NCBI GenBank assembly: GCA_013138965.1
Contig: WTBT01000012.1
Location: 3,497 to 67,496, forward strand
Origin: Candidatus Aegiribacteria sp.
GTDB lineage: Bacteria > Fermentibacterota > Fermentibacteria > Fermentibacterales > JCC-6
Length of the DNA stretch: 64,000 nt
Reading direction: 5' to 3'
A program made the position numbers and the translations under genes. A model generated the notes under the pieces. That model had not been told where the DNA came from. It ran no database searches and saw nothing but the letters and a program-made list of their open reading frames with translations. Below are positions 53,667 to 56,732 of this stretch, piece by piece; position 1 is the stretch's first letter, and each line of letters opens with the position of its first letter.

Positions 53667-54626
53667 GTGATGTCCAGTAAGGAGATACAGTTGAAAAAAC
53701 CCCTATTTCATATAATTGGATTACTACTCACCGCAGCGGCGCTGTATTACCTTGTCGACTCATTTCTGAGTGGAGCTGCCCAGGCTGGAGGGTTATCAAA
53801 TCTACTGCTTTTTGACCCTCTGCTGTTTGCCGTTTCGTTTCTGCTCATGGTGCTGCACCTTCTTGCAGCCGCCTGGTCGTGGATGCTGGTCTGCTCTGTT
53901 GCAGGCGCGGAGATCTCATTCGGTCAGGCGTTCAACGTTCATTTTCTGGCTCAGGTTGGTAAGTACATCCCCGGCAAGGTATGGGGAGCTGTGGGGAAGA
54001 TAGGCCTTTCCAGGAAAATAGGTATGTCCTCAACGAAGACCGGGCATGCTCTGATACTTGAAAGCCTTTTCATAGTGGCCGGATGTCTTCTGATGTCGCT
54101 GCCGGTAATCCCCCTGGCTGCGAATCGGATTGGCCTTGGAACCATACTGAGCGTGATAATCGTAGTAGCATCGGTAGCTGTTGTGCTTTTCACGGCACAT
54201 CCCAGAGCTTTCAGAAAGCTGCTTAAGATCGTTGGATCCATCACCGGCAGGGACATTGATATCGAAGATCCGGGTTTTGGCAATATACTCAAACTTCTAC
54301 CTGTTTACATTCTTGTTTTCATTCTGCAGGGAGTGGCCTTCGTCTTTCTGGCAAGAAGCTTTGGAATGCATCTGCCCTTCTATCCCGGAGCCTTTCTTCT
54401 TCCTACGGCTGTAGGGATCGGATTTCTGGCAATCTTCTCTCCGGGCGGTCTGGGCATCCGTGAGATCTCCCTTGTATGGCTCATAGGGGTGATTATGATT
54501 TCCTCCGAACCGGGACAGGCATCCCTGATCTCGATTGCTGCCAGATTATGGATAACACTGGGTGAAGCCCTTGCGTTTCTGGTTGCCGCAATATGGTGGG
54601 GAGCAGGCAGGAAGGAAAACGGTTGA
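53667..54626 (+). CDS. UPF0104-family (lysylphosphatidylglycerol-synthase-TM-like, flippase-like) membrane protein
   Basis: About 8 TM helices and the family motif AQVGKYIPGKVWG. Confidence 0.6.
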   Translation: MMSSKEIQLKKPLFHIIGLLLTAAALYYLVDSFLSGAAQAGGLSNLLLFDPLLFAVSFLLMVLHLLAAAWSWMLVCSVAGAEISFGQAFNVHFLAQVGKYIPGKVWGAVGKIGLSRKIGMSSTKTGHALILESLFIVAGCLLMSLPVIPLAANRIGLGTILSVIIVVASVAVVLFTAHPRAFRKLLKIVGSITGRDIDIEDPGFGNILKLLPVYILVFILQGVAFVFLARSFGMHLPFYPGAFLLPTAVGIGFLAIFSPGGLGIREISLVWLIGVIMISSEPGQASLISIAARLWITLGEALAFLVAAIWWGAGRKENG

Positions 54627-54760
54627 TATCCAGCATCCTTCAGCCATCAGGCGCATCCTTAAGCACCTGGGTCTGTGGGAAGACCCGAGACCTCCACCTG
54701 AATTCGCTGGAACTGGTCTGCGAAGCGGATGCGAATTCCCGGATCTCTTTTCTGTATTCC
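54625..54760 (+). pseudogene. Possible mobile-element remnant: a short frame encoding ...DIQHPSAIRRILKHLGLWEDPRPPPEFAG..., reminiscent of the C-terminal tail of IS91-family (Y2) transposases
   Basis: The frame has no credible start and overlaps the end of the UPF0104 gene. The motif resemblance is from memory only. It borders a low-GC islet. Confidence 0.25.
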
Positions 54761-54786
54761 TGACCGTGAGTCATCGGAGGCAGGAT

Positions 54787-55407
54787 TCATATCGAATATT
54801 CAGTCAAGGTTTCTGGCGCGTTATCAATACCAGCATCTTTAAAAGCCTTCTCCAGTAAATCTTTCACTTCAAGATCTGATGCCCAGTGTTTCAGATATTC
54901 TTTATCCAGAGAATCCTTCTGTACTTTGAGCACACCAAGAACGTCACTCCACTGGCGATCGGATACGCCTCCACCTAAAAGAAACCATGCAAGTTTGCTC
55001 AGAATAACATCTTCGGGAGATGCAAGAAAGAATTCGATGGCTCTGTGGTCTTCATCCAGGGTGTCTTTTCTTCGCCTTTTGAGTGCTTCTATATTGTAAG
55101 GTGCGTTTTTCGTGATGAAGACATCAATTTTAAGCATTGTATCGAGATGGATAATGTTGAAGGATGAACATCTTCTGATAGCATCCAGAATCATATCTGC
55201 ATCAATGTAATAAGAGGATTCAAGCATTCTGACAAGAGATTGGACATGTTTAGTTTTTAAGTCCGACACCATATCAACATCCATTGTCGAACGGGCTATT
55301 CCGTAAGCAGAACTGGCAACTGAGCCTCCGATGAAATAATGAATGCCAAGTTTTTCAAAAGCTTCAGCAACAGGTTCTATCGCTACCAGTATATCGGGGT
55401 CTTTCAT
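54787..55407 (-). CDS. Nucleotidyltransferase-fold protein (Pol-beta-like GS...DxD motif) with a C-terminal helical domain
   Basis: 206 aa. IGGSVASSAYGIARSTMDVDMVSD (GS-x10-DxD). Local GC is visibly lower than in the flanks. Confidence 0.5.
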   Translation of the reverse strand: MKDPDILVAIEPVAEAFEKLGIHYFIGGSVASSAYGIARSTMDVDMVSDLKTKHVQSLVRMLESSYYIDADMILDAIRRCSSFNIIHLDTMLKIDVFITKNAPYNIEALKRRRKDTLDEDHRAIEFFLASPEDVILSKLAWFLLGGGVSDRQWSDVLGVLKVQKDSLDKEYLKHWASDLEVKDLLEKAFKDAGIDNAPETLTEYSI

Positions 55408-55661
55408 AATGATCTGGTTTCTATGTATTCTCGAAGAAGACCTGCTAATCTTTCTCCGTAATGATAGGATACAAATATGAGATTTAGTTCCTTTTTATCT
55501 AATTCAGGATTTGCTCTCATGATTGCGCGTCGTGAAAGCTTTATGGTGCTTTGAGATAGTGAACGCACTCTTGAGATTCGTTTTGAGATACTCGAAACGC
55601 GAATTAACGATATTAGCAATTCTTCTATTTCGGGATGAGTGTCACGGGACTGTGGTATCAT
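55404..55661 (-). CDS. Small protein (85 aa) translationally coupled upstream of the nucleotidyltransferase gene; candidate antitoxin/regulatory partner
   Basis: Its stop overlaps the nucleotidyltransferase start (ATGA). No recognised motif, and it is not HEPN. Confidence 0.35.
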   Translation of the reverse strand: MIPQSRDTHPEIEELLISLIRVSSISKRISRVRSLSQSTIKLSRRAIMRANPELDKKELNLIFVSYHYGERLAGLLREYIETRSL

Positions 55662-55997
55662 TTTTCTGCTTTCCGTTATAACGATAGGAAACTGGATTCT
55701 CTTCCTTCTGCAATATTGCCCTGAAGAACGCCCCTGCGTCTCCTATACGATCGAATATTTTGCCTGAACTGACAATACCGCCGGTAATCCTGCGCCGTCA
55801 ATGCCATGTACGGCTGACGGGCACTCGGCAGTTGATACGGATGAGCAGGCGAACTATCATGCATCGAGGCCTTGAGATATCCGTTTCTGTTGGATGGTTG
55901 TGATTTATCAGCCAGCGAGAGGAGGACGAGGGCTATGAAGATGAGTTTTAGCCCTTCCGGCTCGCCTATACTCCAAACAGATCTTTACCAAAGACTG

Positions 55998-56732
55998 TTA
56001 CGGGATGTATTTCCCGGATTCGCCCAGTTCCTCAAGCACAAGCAGTGCGGAGTCCGCATAATACCCTTCCGGTGACAGCATCAGGTATCTGCTGATAGCG
56101 TCACCAGCCCTGAGGTAATCTTCCCACCCCAGATAAACCCTTGCAAGTTCCCAGCAGGCGGGAGAATAACCTGCCTCAACAGCGGGAAGAAGTATCTCCC
56201 TTGCCTCGGCTCCTCTTGATGTCCTGCGGTAGACCGACGCAAGCAGAACAAGTGATTCGGGGCATGTGGAACCCTGGCGCTGAACACCCTTTGAGAACCA
56301 CATTTCCGCCGAGTCCATCTCCCCAAGCTTCAGCCATGCTTTTCCGCTCTGCAGCCAGATTGCAGGGGTGGTCGGTGAGCGGATAAAGGCACTGTCTGAC
56401 ATGAGCGCAGCGCTATCAGGTTTATCTGTTTCAAGATAGAGTTTTGATAGTTCGTAGAACCCTCGATAATCGTCCGGACAGGTATCCATGTACTGTCTGA
56501 AGTAATCAGTGGCGCGGTTCCATGACTGCCACATCGCATGGATCATTCCCAGGCCAAGCACAGCAGTATGGTATTCTTCGCTGAGTTCAAGCGTCTGCTG
56601 AAATTCCTCTTCGGCCTGCTCAAGAAGCCCCTGCTGCATATATGCCATACCCGTATCAAGATGGAGCTGTGCGGAAAGATCATCTATATCAATTGAAAGA
56701 AGGGTTAAACACAGAATTATGAAGATCTGCAT
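55998..56732 (-). CDS. Secreted TPR-repeat protein
   Basis: Signal peptide (MQIFIILCLTLLSI), then 5-6 TPR-like repeats. 244 aa. Confidence 0.5.
   Translation of the reverse strand: MQIFIILCLTLLSIDIDDLSAQLHLDTGMAYMQQGLLEQAEEEFQQTLELSEEYHTAVLGLGMIHAMWQSWNRATDYFRQYMDTCPDDYRGFYELSKLYLETDKPDSAALMSDSAFIRSPTTPAIWLQSGKAWLKLGEMDSAEMWFSKGVQRQGSTCPESLVLLASVYRRTSRGAEAREILLPAVEAGYSPACWELARVYLGWEDYLRAGDAISRYLMLSPEGYYADSALLVLEELGESGKYIP

What the first reader, a model, noticed from the sequence alone, without database searches (positions are those of the whole stretch)
54625..55661. Low-GC islet with a translationally coupled small-ORF + nucleotidyltransferase pair beside a transposase-like remnant: candidate toxin-antitoxin or defence-type module
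Between a UPF0104 membrane gene and a TPR gene lies about 1 kb of visibly AT-richer DNA on the opposite strand. It encodes an 85-aa protein whose stop overlaps (ATGA) the start of a 206-aa Pol-beta-type nucleotidyltransferase (GS…DVDMVSD). A short frame at the islet border encodes …ILKHLGLWEDPRPPPE…, which I associate with IS91-family transposase tails. Small-partner + NTase pairs are typical of MNT/HEPN-like and AbiE-like TA/abortive-infection systems, and also of ANT-type modifying enzymes. The partner here is not HEPN-like, so the pairing may be an undescribed variant.
Basis: partly seen in the sequence, partly recalled or inferred. Interest (0 to 1): 0.6.

Follow-up and report, generated by a model that had tools for sequence, protein, structure and literature searches.

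The report
Horizontally acquired MenAT1-like toxin–antitoxin pair
This is a two-gene toxin–antitoxin-type module, a small helical protein plus a nucleotidyltransferase whose closest solved relative is the tRNA-modifying toxin MenT1 of M. tuberculosis, inserted by horizontal transfer between two housekeeping genes of an uncultured Aegiribacteria/Fermentibacteria genome; it is an ordinary member of a large, so far unnamed branch of a known family, and the neighbouring 'transposase tail' is not real.

Summary
The two ORFs, the ATGA overlap, the GS…DVD motif and the low GC are all real. The pair (54787-55661, minus strand) is the lowest-GC stretch of its size in the 64-kb window (0.40 vs 0.49, z = -3.7). 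It is absent from the same site in 19 syntenic Aegiribacteria/Fermentibacteria genomes.

The 85-aa protein belongs to a large family (851 clusters). 27 of 94 members give sub-threshold hits to Pfam 'Rv0078B-related antitoxin' (MenA1), and hhalign gives P = 4e-4.

The two genes co-occur in 76 of 76 loci across several phyla, usually overlapping by 4 nt, under purifying selection, and are sometimes fused.

The 'IS91 tail' has no homologue. In a relative the orthologous DNA carries a stop and an indel, so it is non-coding host DNA.

Verdict: a MenAT1-like toxin–antitoxin module, a new member of a known kind. The TA reading is supported. The 'undescribed variant' and transposase readings are not. 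Toxicity, the tRNA target and the antitoxin mechanism are inferred.

The parts
55404..55661 (-). 85-aa small helical protein, candidate antitoxin (distant MenA1/Rv0078B-like)
   Evidence: ORF. There are 39 close homologues and 851 cluster representatives. The AF2 model has five helices, pLDDT 76. 27/94 family members give sub-threshold hits to PF18993 'Rv0078B-related antitoxin' in a constant register. hhalign against MenA1 homologues gives P 4e-4 for window residues 24-62 vs MenA1 5-43. dN/dS is 0.17-0.18 and it evolves faster than the NTase. D7, T8, E13, L35, S36, R45, A46, Y68 and G69 are near-invariant.
54787..55407 (-). 206-aa DUF6036 nucleotidyltransferase, candidate MenT1-like toxin
55404..55407 (-). 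ATGA stop/start overlap (translational coupling)
   Evidence: The same 4-nt overlap occurs in 51 related loci and a 14-nt overlap in 13; nearly all others overlap or abut.
54820..55674 (.). DNA block shared with loci from other phyla; the transferred unit is essentially the two ORFs plus about 13 nt of leader
   Evidence: blastn shows 77-80% identity to Desulfonema magnum CP061800 and other loci L001-L005, ending at these borders.
55772..55801 (-). Promoter-like site TTGACG-18-TATTGT, about 110 nt upstream of the small ORF (weak evidence)
   Evidence: Consensus scan; the number of sites in the region is no higher than in shuffles. Both hexamers are conserved in the 92%-identical sister contig L107.
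55662..55997 (.). Right flank of the insert, origin unknown. It replaces the DUF4282 gene that most relatives carry next to the TPR gene
   Evidence: No similarity to any of 114 fetched loci other than the sister contigs L107-L109, which match up to 55817. The 62-aa ORF at 55676-55864 has no Pfam hit.
54627..54786 (.). Left flank. 54627-54733 is host non-coding DNA shared with relative L012 and holds the supposed 'IS91 tail' frame; it is not a transposase remnant
   Evidence: blastn to L012 is 83-85% identical. The L012 frame has a stop and an indel. There are no homologues.

Best explanation
A horizontally acquired, self-contained toxin-antitoxin module of the MenAT1 type.

Shown:
- The module consists of two translationally coupled genes that always travel together.
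- It was inserted at a variable intergenic spot of an Aegiribacteria/Fermentibacteria chromosome.
- The downstream protein has a MenT1-like (short AbiEii/DUF1814-type) nucleotidyltransferase fold with a complete, invariant set of catalytic residues.

Inferred by analogy with MenT1/MenT3/MenT4 (PMC10435456, PMC7450476):
- The free NTase adds nucleotides to the 3'-CCA ends of tRNAs, which blocks aminoacylation and arrests translation and growth.
- The upstream 85-aa helical protein neutralises it by binding over the active site.
- As shown for MenA1 (PMC11375011), the small protein may also push the invariant Thr41 towards bound NTP so that the toxin auto-phosphorylates and is switched off.

The biological role is not determined. 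It could be genomic stabilisation or addiction, stress-induced growth arrest, or abortive-infection-like phage defence.
For: 1. Foreign origin. The pair is absent from the UPF0104/TPR gap in all 19 syntenic relatives. It has the lowest GC in the window. Its DNA is 77-80% identical to loci in Desulfonema and other hosts, and protein relatives at 65-82% identity occur in Planctomycetota, Latescibacterota, Cloacimonetes, Nitrospirae and Desulfobacterales.
2. Obligate pairing. The small gene lies immediately upstream in 76/76 loci. The ATGA overlap is present in 51 of them. Recurrent single-polypeptide fusions exist. Neighbourhoods are unrelated, some TA-rich.
4. Antitoxin identity. 27/94 family members hit PF18993 'Rv0078B-related antitoxin', while the next most frequent family is hit by only 3 members. 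The register is constant and lies on the functional N-terminal part of MenA1. hhalign gives P 4e-4.
5. Both genes are intact and under purifying selection, with the small one evolving faster. A sister lineage at 92% identity keeps both genes.
6. Orphan small genes and truncated NTases occur, as expected if loss of the toxin is tolerated but loss of the antitoxin alone is not.
Against: - No experiment. Toxicity, neutralisation and the tRNA target are all inferred.
- The window's own small protein does not hit PF18993 even at E<=10. All family hits are below the curated cutoff (14-22 bits against 27.1). The profile does not find the MenA1 chain in the PDB, and the AF2 model has no significant fold match.
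- MenA1's key contact residues L12, L14 and V19 are not visibly conserved in the hhalign alignment.
- The NTase belongs to Pfam DUF6036, not AbiEii/DUF1814. Its C-terminal half has no sequence-level match to MenT1.
- PADLOC has no hit.
- Recurrent fusions of the two parts are unusual for a classical labile-antitoxin system.
Confidence: 0.72

Rival explanations
1. A non-toxic two-subunit, sometimes fused, nucleotidyltransferase. The small protein would be an obligate activating or substrate-targeting subunit rather than an antitoxin, and the pair would modify some cellular RNA, protein or metabolite as an accessory function.
For: Recurrent in-frame fusions of the small protein to the NTase occur in divergent members. 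Co-occurrence is strict, 76/76. The small protein carries an extra invariant N-terminal D7-T8 segment that MenA1 lacks. The antitoxin homology is only sub-threshold.
Against: The best structural match is a proven toxin, and the partner's only recurrent family signal is that toxin's antitoxin. The module shows patchy, HGT-like distribution, AT-rich composition and insertion into unrelated contexts including TA islands. Orphan small genes without an NTase exist. Fused toxin-antitoxin proteins are known elsewhere (own knowledge: CapRel SJ46).
Confidence: 0.12
2. An antibiotic or small-molecule nucleotidyltransferase of the ANT(2'')-Ia / LnuA type, carried as a resistance cassette.
Against: MenT1 scores 5 Z units higher and aligns over the whole length. 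There is no NCBIfam hit, and that library includes NCBI's resistance models. Resistance NTases do not come with an obligatory overlapping 85-aa partner (76/76). The MenT-type phospho-acceptor Thr is invariant. No match was found on viral contigs. Plasmids were searched only with the 50-aa 'tail' peptide, never with the NTase or the small protein, so plasmid carriage of the pair is untested.
Confidence: 0.05
3. Reversed polarity, as in HEPN-MNT systems: the NTase is the antitoxin and neutralises a toxic small protein by nucleotidylating it.
For: Small-partner + minimal-NTase pairs of the HEPN/MNT kind exist (own knowledge). The small protein has invariant Thr/Ser/Tyr residues (T8, S36, Y68) that could accept a nucleotide.
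Against: The small protein is not HEPN: it has 85 aa, no Rx4-6H motif and no Pfam hit. The NTase does not hit NTP_transf_2 (1/39 at E 0.038). Gene order, with the small gene first and evolving faster, is that of antitoxin-then-toxin. Orphan small genes persist without the NTase, which a toxin could not do.
Confidence: 0.04
4. A question of biological role, not exclusive of the best explanation: the module works as an abortive-infection / anti-phage system like AbiE.
For: MenT toxins belong to the AbiEii family (PMC10435456). 10/39 relatives weakly hit the AbiEii Pfam. Some loci lie among other TA or defence-like genes such as PIN/DUF433, Fic, XisH/XisI, HipA-like and an MmeI-type methylase.
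Against: There is no PADLOC hit and no AbiEi-type partner. In the window and in several loci the pair sits alone among housekeeping genes. None was found on viral contigs. No phage data exist.
Confidence: 0.2

Closest known systems
MenAT1 (MenA1/Rv0078B - MenT1/Rv0078A) of Mycobacterium tuberculosis
   Same: - Gene order: small helical protein upstream, ~196-aa NTase downstream, in one operon.
- Active-site set: Thr-x-Asp-x-Asp, Lys and Asp at near-identical positions.
- The small protein has no DNA-binding domain.
- Weak but recurrent similarity of the small protein to PF18993, on MenA1's functional N-terminal helix.
- Location in atypical, horizontally acquired DNA.
   Different: - Only ~15-19% sequence identity for the NTase.
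- The NTase falls in Pfam DUF6036, not AbiEii/DUF1814.
- The small protein is 85 aa rather than 68. It has an extra ~20-aa N-terminal segment with an invariant D-T motif and lacks MenA1's disordered C-terminal tail motif (RPGA..GD).
- MenA1 contact residues L12/L14/V19 are not visibly conserved.
- The family is far larger (at least 1,900 NTase hits and 851 small-protein clusters) than the 21 MenA1 homologues reported.
- The family lives in anaerobic and sediment lineages.
- Recurrent fused forms exist.
AbiE (AbiEi-AbiEii) and MenAT3/TglT-TakA, MenAT4
   Same: The same NTase superfamily, with four motifs. The toxin is controlled by an upstream partner. The Ser/Thr before the DxD is used for (auto)phosphorylation in MenT3 and, per a 2026 preprint title and abstract (10.64898/2026.01.19.700257), in AbiEii.
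Pfam DUF6036 (PF19502), 'nucleotidyltransferase of unknown function'
   Same: The window's NTase scores above the curated cutoff, and 37/39 relatives match.
   Different: Pfam gives no function or partner, and no paper in the searchable library mentions DUF6036. The link to MenT1 and to a conserved upstream partner is what this analysis adds.
HEPN-MNT (type VII) systems
   Same: A minimal Pol-beta-type NTase paired with a second small gene, often overlapping.
   Different: There is no HEPN partner. The gene order and likely polarity are opposite, and the NTase does not match NTP_transf_2.
ANT(2'')-Ia / LnuA resistance nucleotidyltransferases
   Different: Lower structural similarity than to MenT1. 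They have no partner gene, and no resistance-model hit was found.

Membership tests
MenAT1-type TA system | Toxin with the short MenT1/AbiEii-type nucleotidyltransferase fold | tested here: met
MenAT1-type TA system | Catalytic residues: motif I/II G-S...T-x-D-x-D, motif III Lys, motif IV Asp (MenT1 T39, D41, K137, D152) | tested here: met
   T41/D43/D45 align to T39/D41/D43 in the HMMER alignment. K138 (EDVILSKLAW) and D155 (DRQWSDVLGV) resemble MenT1 HLIAMKLLARD and PQDRSDLRALV as read from the mutagenesis primers. All are invariant in 83-86 of 87 homologues. The C-terminal equivalence rests on position, pattern and fold, not on a significant sequence alignment.
MenAT1-type TA system | Toxin is a sequence member of DUF1814/AbiEii (PF08843) | tested here: not met
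   The window NTase has no PF08843 hit at E<=1. Only 10/39 relatives give weak hits, best E 1.4e-4. It is a member of PF19502 (DUF6036) instead.
MenAT1-type TA system | Small antitoxin of the Rv0078B family (PF18993) encoded immediately upstream | tested here: inconclusive
   Position and size are met (76/76 loci). On sequence, the window protein has no hit. 27/94 family members hit PF18993 at E<0.1, best 7.3e-6, all below the 27.1-bit cutoff and in a constant register. hhalign against nine OCR-derived MenA1 homologues gives P 4e-4, probability 35%. There is no PDB sequence or fold hit to MenA1.
MenAT1-type TA system | NTase is growth-inhibitory and is neutralised by the cognate small protein | not testable with these tools
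   Needs expression assays.
MenAT1-type TA system | NTase extends tRNA 3'-CCA ends; the antitoxin binds across the active site and induces Thr auto-phosphorylation | not testable with these tools
   Needs biochemistry (tRNA-seq, Phos-tag, mass spectrometry). A complex prediction could not be run here.
Pfam DUF6036 (PF19502) | Score above the curated gathering threshold | tested here: met
   24.6 bits against 23.6, E 2.5e-5; 37/39 relatives match.
HEPN-MNT | HEPN partner with an Rx4-6H motif, and an NTP_transf_2-type MNT | tested here: not met
   The small protein has no HEPN Pfam hit and no Rx4-6H motif. NTP_transf_2 is hit by 1/39 relatives at E 0.038.
AbiE (AbiEi/AbiEii) | COG5340 wHTH AbiEi antitoxin upstream; recognised by defence-system models | tested here: not met
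   The partner is an 85-aa helical protein with no HTH hit. PADLOC has no hit for either protein.
IS91-family transposase remnant | Detectable similarity to Y2 transposases; coding frame conserved in orthologous DNA | tested here: not met
   No hit in Pfam or NCBIfam, in plasmid tblastn or among 5.8 billion proteins. The orthologous L012 DNA has a stop within the motif plus an indel. A remnant of about 25 residues is too short for a powerful test, so a very old remnant cannot be strictly excluded.
ANT/Lnu resistance NTases | Match to curated resistance models; stand-alone gene | tested here: not met
   No NCBIfam hit. The fold is similar but ranks below MenT1. The partner gene is obligatory.

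The most novel reading that the evidence does not exclude
The DUF6036 + 85-aa-protein family is a distinct and very large environmental branch of MenAT-like systems, and it works differently from MenAT1. The small protein carries an extra, invariant N-terminal D7-T8 segment and has repeatedly fused to the NTase. It may therefore act as a cis-acting auto-inhibitory or trigger-sensing domain, as in the fused CapRel systems, or as a pseudo-substrate or phospho-relay. That would differ from a freely exchangeable, labile antitoxin that bridges two toxin protomers.
Probability: 0.15. Interest if true: 0.55.

Novelty: new member of a known kind. Interest (0 to 1): 0.3.

Why it matters
The finding has modest value in four respects.
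1. It assigns a probable function and a partner to a Pfam 'domain of unknown function' (DUF6036) that has thousands of members in uncultured anaerobic bacteria.
2. It suggests that the MenAT1 architecture, described from 21 mostly actinobacterial homologues, is far more widespread than reported.
3. The strictly conserved Thr before the DxD supports the proposal that antitoxin-induced auto-phosphorylation is a general control mechanism of these toxins.
4. The recurrent fused forms offer natural single-chain versions on which to test that proposal.

For the genome itself, the pair marks a recombination-prone intergenic spot that holds different cargo in each Aegiribacteria species.

Tried and rejected
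- IS91 transposase tail. No hit in Pfam or NCBIfam, plasmid tblastn or the 5.8-billion-protein search. The orthologous frame in L012 is broken. Rejected.
- HEPN/MNT, AbiE and other defence-system models. No PADLOC hit, no HEPN and no AbiEi. Rejected as family assignments.
- Phage carriage. No relative on 2.9 million viral contigs.
- Direct sequence link of the small protein to the solved MenA1 chain. None was found with the family profile or with single members. The Foldseek search of the small model gave nothing significant.
- Sequence alignment of the NTase C-terminal half to MenT1. None was found. The equivalence of K138 and D155 therefore rests on fold, position and the primer-derived local sequences.
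- RNA elements in the islet. Only one sub-threshold Rfam match, which is meaningless.
- Flanking direct or inverted repeats as target-site duplications or element ends. Only short, chance-level repeats were found. No integrase or transposase lies next to the pair in any locus examined. attC-type sites were looked for by eye only and not tested formally.
- A 10-bp palindrome upstream of the small ORF (55710-55719) as an operator. It is not conserved in the 92%-identical sister contig.
- Literature on DUF6036. None in the searchable library.
Full report
**Observation**

The minus strand between a UPF0104/LPG_synthase_TM membrane gene (53667-54626, +) and a TPR gene (55998-56732, -) carries two ORFs. 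One is an 85-aa ORF (55404-55661) and the other a 206-aa ORF (54787-55407). The stop of the first overlaps the start of the second as ATGA. The 206-aa protein contains GGSVASSAYGIARSTMDVDMVSD.

The compositional claim holds on calculation:
- The pair has GC 0.401 against 0.494 for the window.
- For 875-nt windows the sd is 0.025, so z = -3.7.
- The ten lowest-GC positions in the whole 64 kb all lie on the pair.
- GC3 is 0.28 and 0.36, against 0.46-0.53 in the six neighbouring genes.

**Host and insertion**

The neighbouring HflX-like protein retrieved 19 syntenic loci from Candidatus Aegiribacteria / Fermentibacteria MAGs at 70-91% identity (taxonomy). All of them keep the order HflX, 145-aa protein, UPF0104, then TPR on the opposite strand, Lpd and MazG. 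None contains either gene of the pair.

The gap between the convergent UPF0104 and TPR genes ranges from 21 bp to 4.9 kb across these species. It holds different cargo in different species:
- most often a DUF4282 membrane protein;
- elsewhere DUF188, DUF3795, secreted proteins, a flippase plus glycosyltransferase, or a TetR regulator.

Host homology to the window stops at about 54620-54631 and resumes exactly at 55998. The window lacks the DUF4282 gene. An independent assembly reproduces the window's arrangement exactly (L110). Three short contigs from other samples carry the same insertion, with the same flanks, at 92% nucleotide identity and with both ORFs intact.

**The pair as a mobile unit**

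The DNA of the pair (54820-55674) is 77-80% identical to loci in Desulfonema magnum and in other metagenomic contigs. The similarity ends within about 13 nt upstream of the small ORF and at the normal C-terminus of the NTase.

The NTase has at least 1,936 homologues. The top 120 are 64-94% identical and come from Planctomycetota, Latescibacterota, Cloacimonetes, Nitrospirae and Desulfobacterales. A profile of the small protein finds 851 cluster representatives, nearly all 82-90 aa long.

In 85 loci examined, 76 had enough upstream sequence to score. All 76 carry the small gene directly upstream of the NTase. The junction is the 4-nt ATGA overlap in 51 loci, a 14-nt overlap in 13, and another overlap or abutment in nearly all the rest. 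In four or five loci the two genes form one reading frame. Several divergent database proteins of about 281 aa are such fusions.

The neighbourhoods are unrelated to each other:
- housekeeping operons (L004, L111, L114);
- TA-rich islands with PIN/DUF433, Fic, XisH/XisI and HipA-like genes (L001, L113);
- occasional orphan small genes or truncated NTases (L112, L113).

No integrase or transposase is adjacent in any of these loci, and no relative was found on viral contigs. Both genes are under purifying selection: dN/dS is 0.10-0.18 where dS is not saturated. The small protein accumulates non-synonymous change about 1.3-2 times faster than the NTase in most comparisons (roughly equal in L004).

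**The NTase**

It scores just above the curated cutoff for Pfam DUF6036 (24.6 against 23.6 bits). Of 39 relatives, 37 match DUF6036 and 10 weakly match AbiEii. It has no NCBIfam or PADLOC hit.

The AlphaFold2 model has pLDDT 86 and is disordered only in the last 10 residues.
- By Foldseek the best matches are the five MenT1 (Rv0078A) chains, E 7e-8 to 2e-6 and TM about 0.6 over the full length.
- The only PDB hit of the sequence profile is also MenT1 (E 0.11). That alignment places R39-x-T41-x-D43-x-D45 on MenT1 R37-x-T39-x-D41-x-D43.

MenT1's catalytically important residues are T39 (the phospho-acceptor), D41, K137 and D152 (PMC11375011). The published mutagenesis primers spell HLIAM-K137-LLARD and PQDRS-D152-LRALV. 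The window protein has EDVILS-K138-LAWFL and SDRQWS-D155-VLGVL. T41, D43, D45, K138 and D155 are invariant in 83-86 of 87 homologues.

The C-terminal equivalence is an inference from position, local pattern and fold. A profile of the C-terminal half found no significant sequence match.

**The small protein**

The window's copy has no Pfam, NCBIfam or PADLOC hit. The model is a five-helix bundle (pLDDT 76) with no significant fold match.

When 94 diverse family members were scanned individually, 27 hit Pfam PF18993 'Rv0078B-related antitoxin', with best E 7.3e-6. The next most frequent family was hit by only 3 members. Rv0078B is MenA1, the cognate antitoxin of MenT1. The hits are all below the curated cutoff (14-22 bits against 27.1). 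They share one register: family residues about 19-58 align to profile positions 2-40 of 63. That part corresponds to the MenA1 N-terminal helix, which is sufficient for antitoxin activity (PMC11375011).

A profile-profile comparison against nine MenA1 homologues gave P 4e-4, probability 35%, over 39 columns in the same register. Those nine sequences were transcribed from the OCR text of the paper's Fig. S2, so they are approximate.

Points against a close relationship:
- No direct PDB sequence hit to MenA1 was obtained.
- MenA1's contact residues L12, L14 and V19 are not visibly conserved.
- The family has an extra N-terminal segment of about 20 residues with invariant D7-T8, which MenA1 lacks.

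I therefore treat the relationship as distant homology or analogy. It is made credible mainly by its coincidence with the independent MenT1 assignment of the partner.

**The 'IS91 tail'**

The frame reading ...ILKHLGLWEDPRPPPE... lies in 54627-54733, immediately after the UPF0104 stop codon.
- It has no Pfam or NCBIfam match.
- It has no IS91-like tblastn hit in 72,556 plasmids.
- It shares not even three 5-residue words with any of 5.8 billion proteins.
- The same DNA is present downstream of UPF0104 in one relative, L012, at 83-85% identity. There the frame reads ...RRILNNPDL*QDPRP..., and a 1-nt indel follows.

It is shared non-coding host DNA, not the border of the mobile unit. The test has little power for a 25-residue remnant, so a very ancient remnant cannot be formally excluded. 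Nothing supports one.

**Mechanism**

Shown: the module's architecture, its foreign origin, the obligate pairing, the purifying selection, the MenT1-like fold and the intact catalytic set.

Inferred from the MenT literature (PMC7450476, PMC10435456, PMC11375011):
- The NTase adds nucleotides to tRNA 3' acceptor ends and arrests translation.
- The small protein blocks the active site.
- The small protein may also promote auto-phosphorylation of Thr41.

The biological role is open: stabilisation, stress response or phage defence.

**Rivals**

- A non-toxic two-subunit enzyme is supported mainly by the fusions.
- An ANT/Lnu-type resistance enzyme has a lower fold score, no model hit and no explanation for the obligatory partner.
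- A reversed HEPN-MNT-like polarity is contradicted by the absence of HEPN, by the gene order and by the orphan small genes.

**Novelty**

The pair is a new member of a known kind. The additions are an annotation link (DUF6036 plus an unnamed 85-aa family equals a MenAT1-like module) and the observation that this branch is large, phylogenetically scattered and sometimes fused. A specialist would not be surprised, so interest is about 0.3.

Noticed in passing
window 54627-55997; loci L006-L024 between the UPF0104 and TPR genes: The gap between the convergent UPF0104 and TPR genes is a variable spot in Aegiribacteria/Fermentibacteria, from 21 bp to 4.9 kb. Its cargo differs by species: a DUF4282 membrane protein (most common), DUF188/YaiI, DUF3795, secreted proteins ending ...WG.(I/L)K..F, a flippase plus glycosyltransferase, or TetR. 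The window lacks the DUF4282 gene, and L007 keeps only a truncated copy.
   Followed up: partly
P0168, P0172, P0267, P0044, P0033; loci L003, L027, L091, L100, L106: The small protein and the NTase are encoded as one polypeptide of about 281 aa in several divergent relatives, about 5-7% of loci. They are either natural fused toxin-antitoxin forms or frameshift artefacts; their diversity argues for real fusions.
   Followed up: partly
L113 5001-5258; L112 5001-5857: L113 has an orphan small-protein gene with no NTase downstream. L112 has a small gene followed, after a 120-nt gap, by a shortened 159-aa ORF. The pattern is consistent with decay of the toxin and retention of the antitoxin.
   Followed up: no
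window 54787-54819 (NTase residues 196-206): The window's NTase is 206 aa, against the usual 193-196. The extra 10-residue tail has pLDDT below 50. DNA similarity to other phyla ends at about 54820, which suggests the original stop was lost at the insertion junction. A few other relatives (P0001, P0004, P0050, P0069) are also 206 aa.
   Followed up: partly
L107-L110 (same or sister genomes): The automatic gene calls on these contigs list the NTase but not the intact 85-aa ORF upstream of it. The small partner is easily missed in annotation.
   Followed up: no
small-protein family member P0274 (residues 5-51): P0274 weakly resembles a single 42-residue kinesin-light-chain-type TPR repeat (HP...HP spacing), with summed E 2e-5 against PDB 4y6w/4y6c. 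This is probably helical-hairpin convergence. One family member also hit TPR_10 weakly.
   Followed up: no
P0205 (2559 aa): A huge AT-rich repeat protein matches positions 44-81 of the small-protein profile 26 times (…IRKAIFKLNPDLNNKNIKIY…). This is most likely a spurious low-complexity resemblance.
   Followed up: no
L001 (Desulfonema magnum CP061800, 791849-804439): In this complete genome the pair lies directly downstream of a group II intron reverse transcriptase gene. XisH/XisI, a D12-class methyltransferase and a HipA_C-like gene are nearby, so the region looks like an accessory or TA island.
   Followed up: no
window 55676-55864 (-) and 55710-55719: A 62-aa ORF in the GC-normal spacer upstream of the pair has no family hit. 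A perfect 10-bp palindrome, GCAATATTGC, lies 50 nt upstream of the small ORF but is not conserved in the 92%-identical sister contig.
   Followed up: partly
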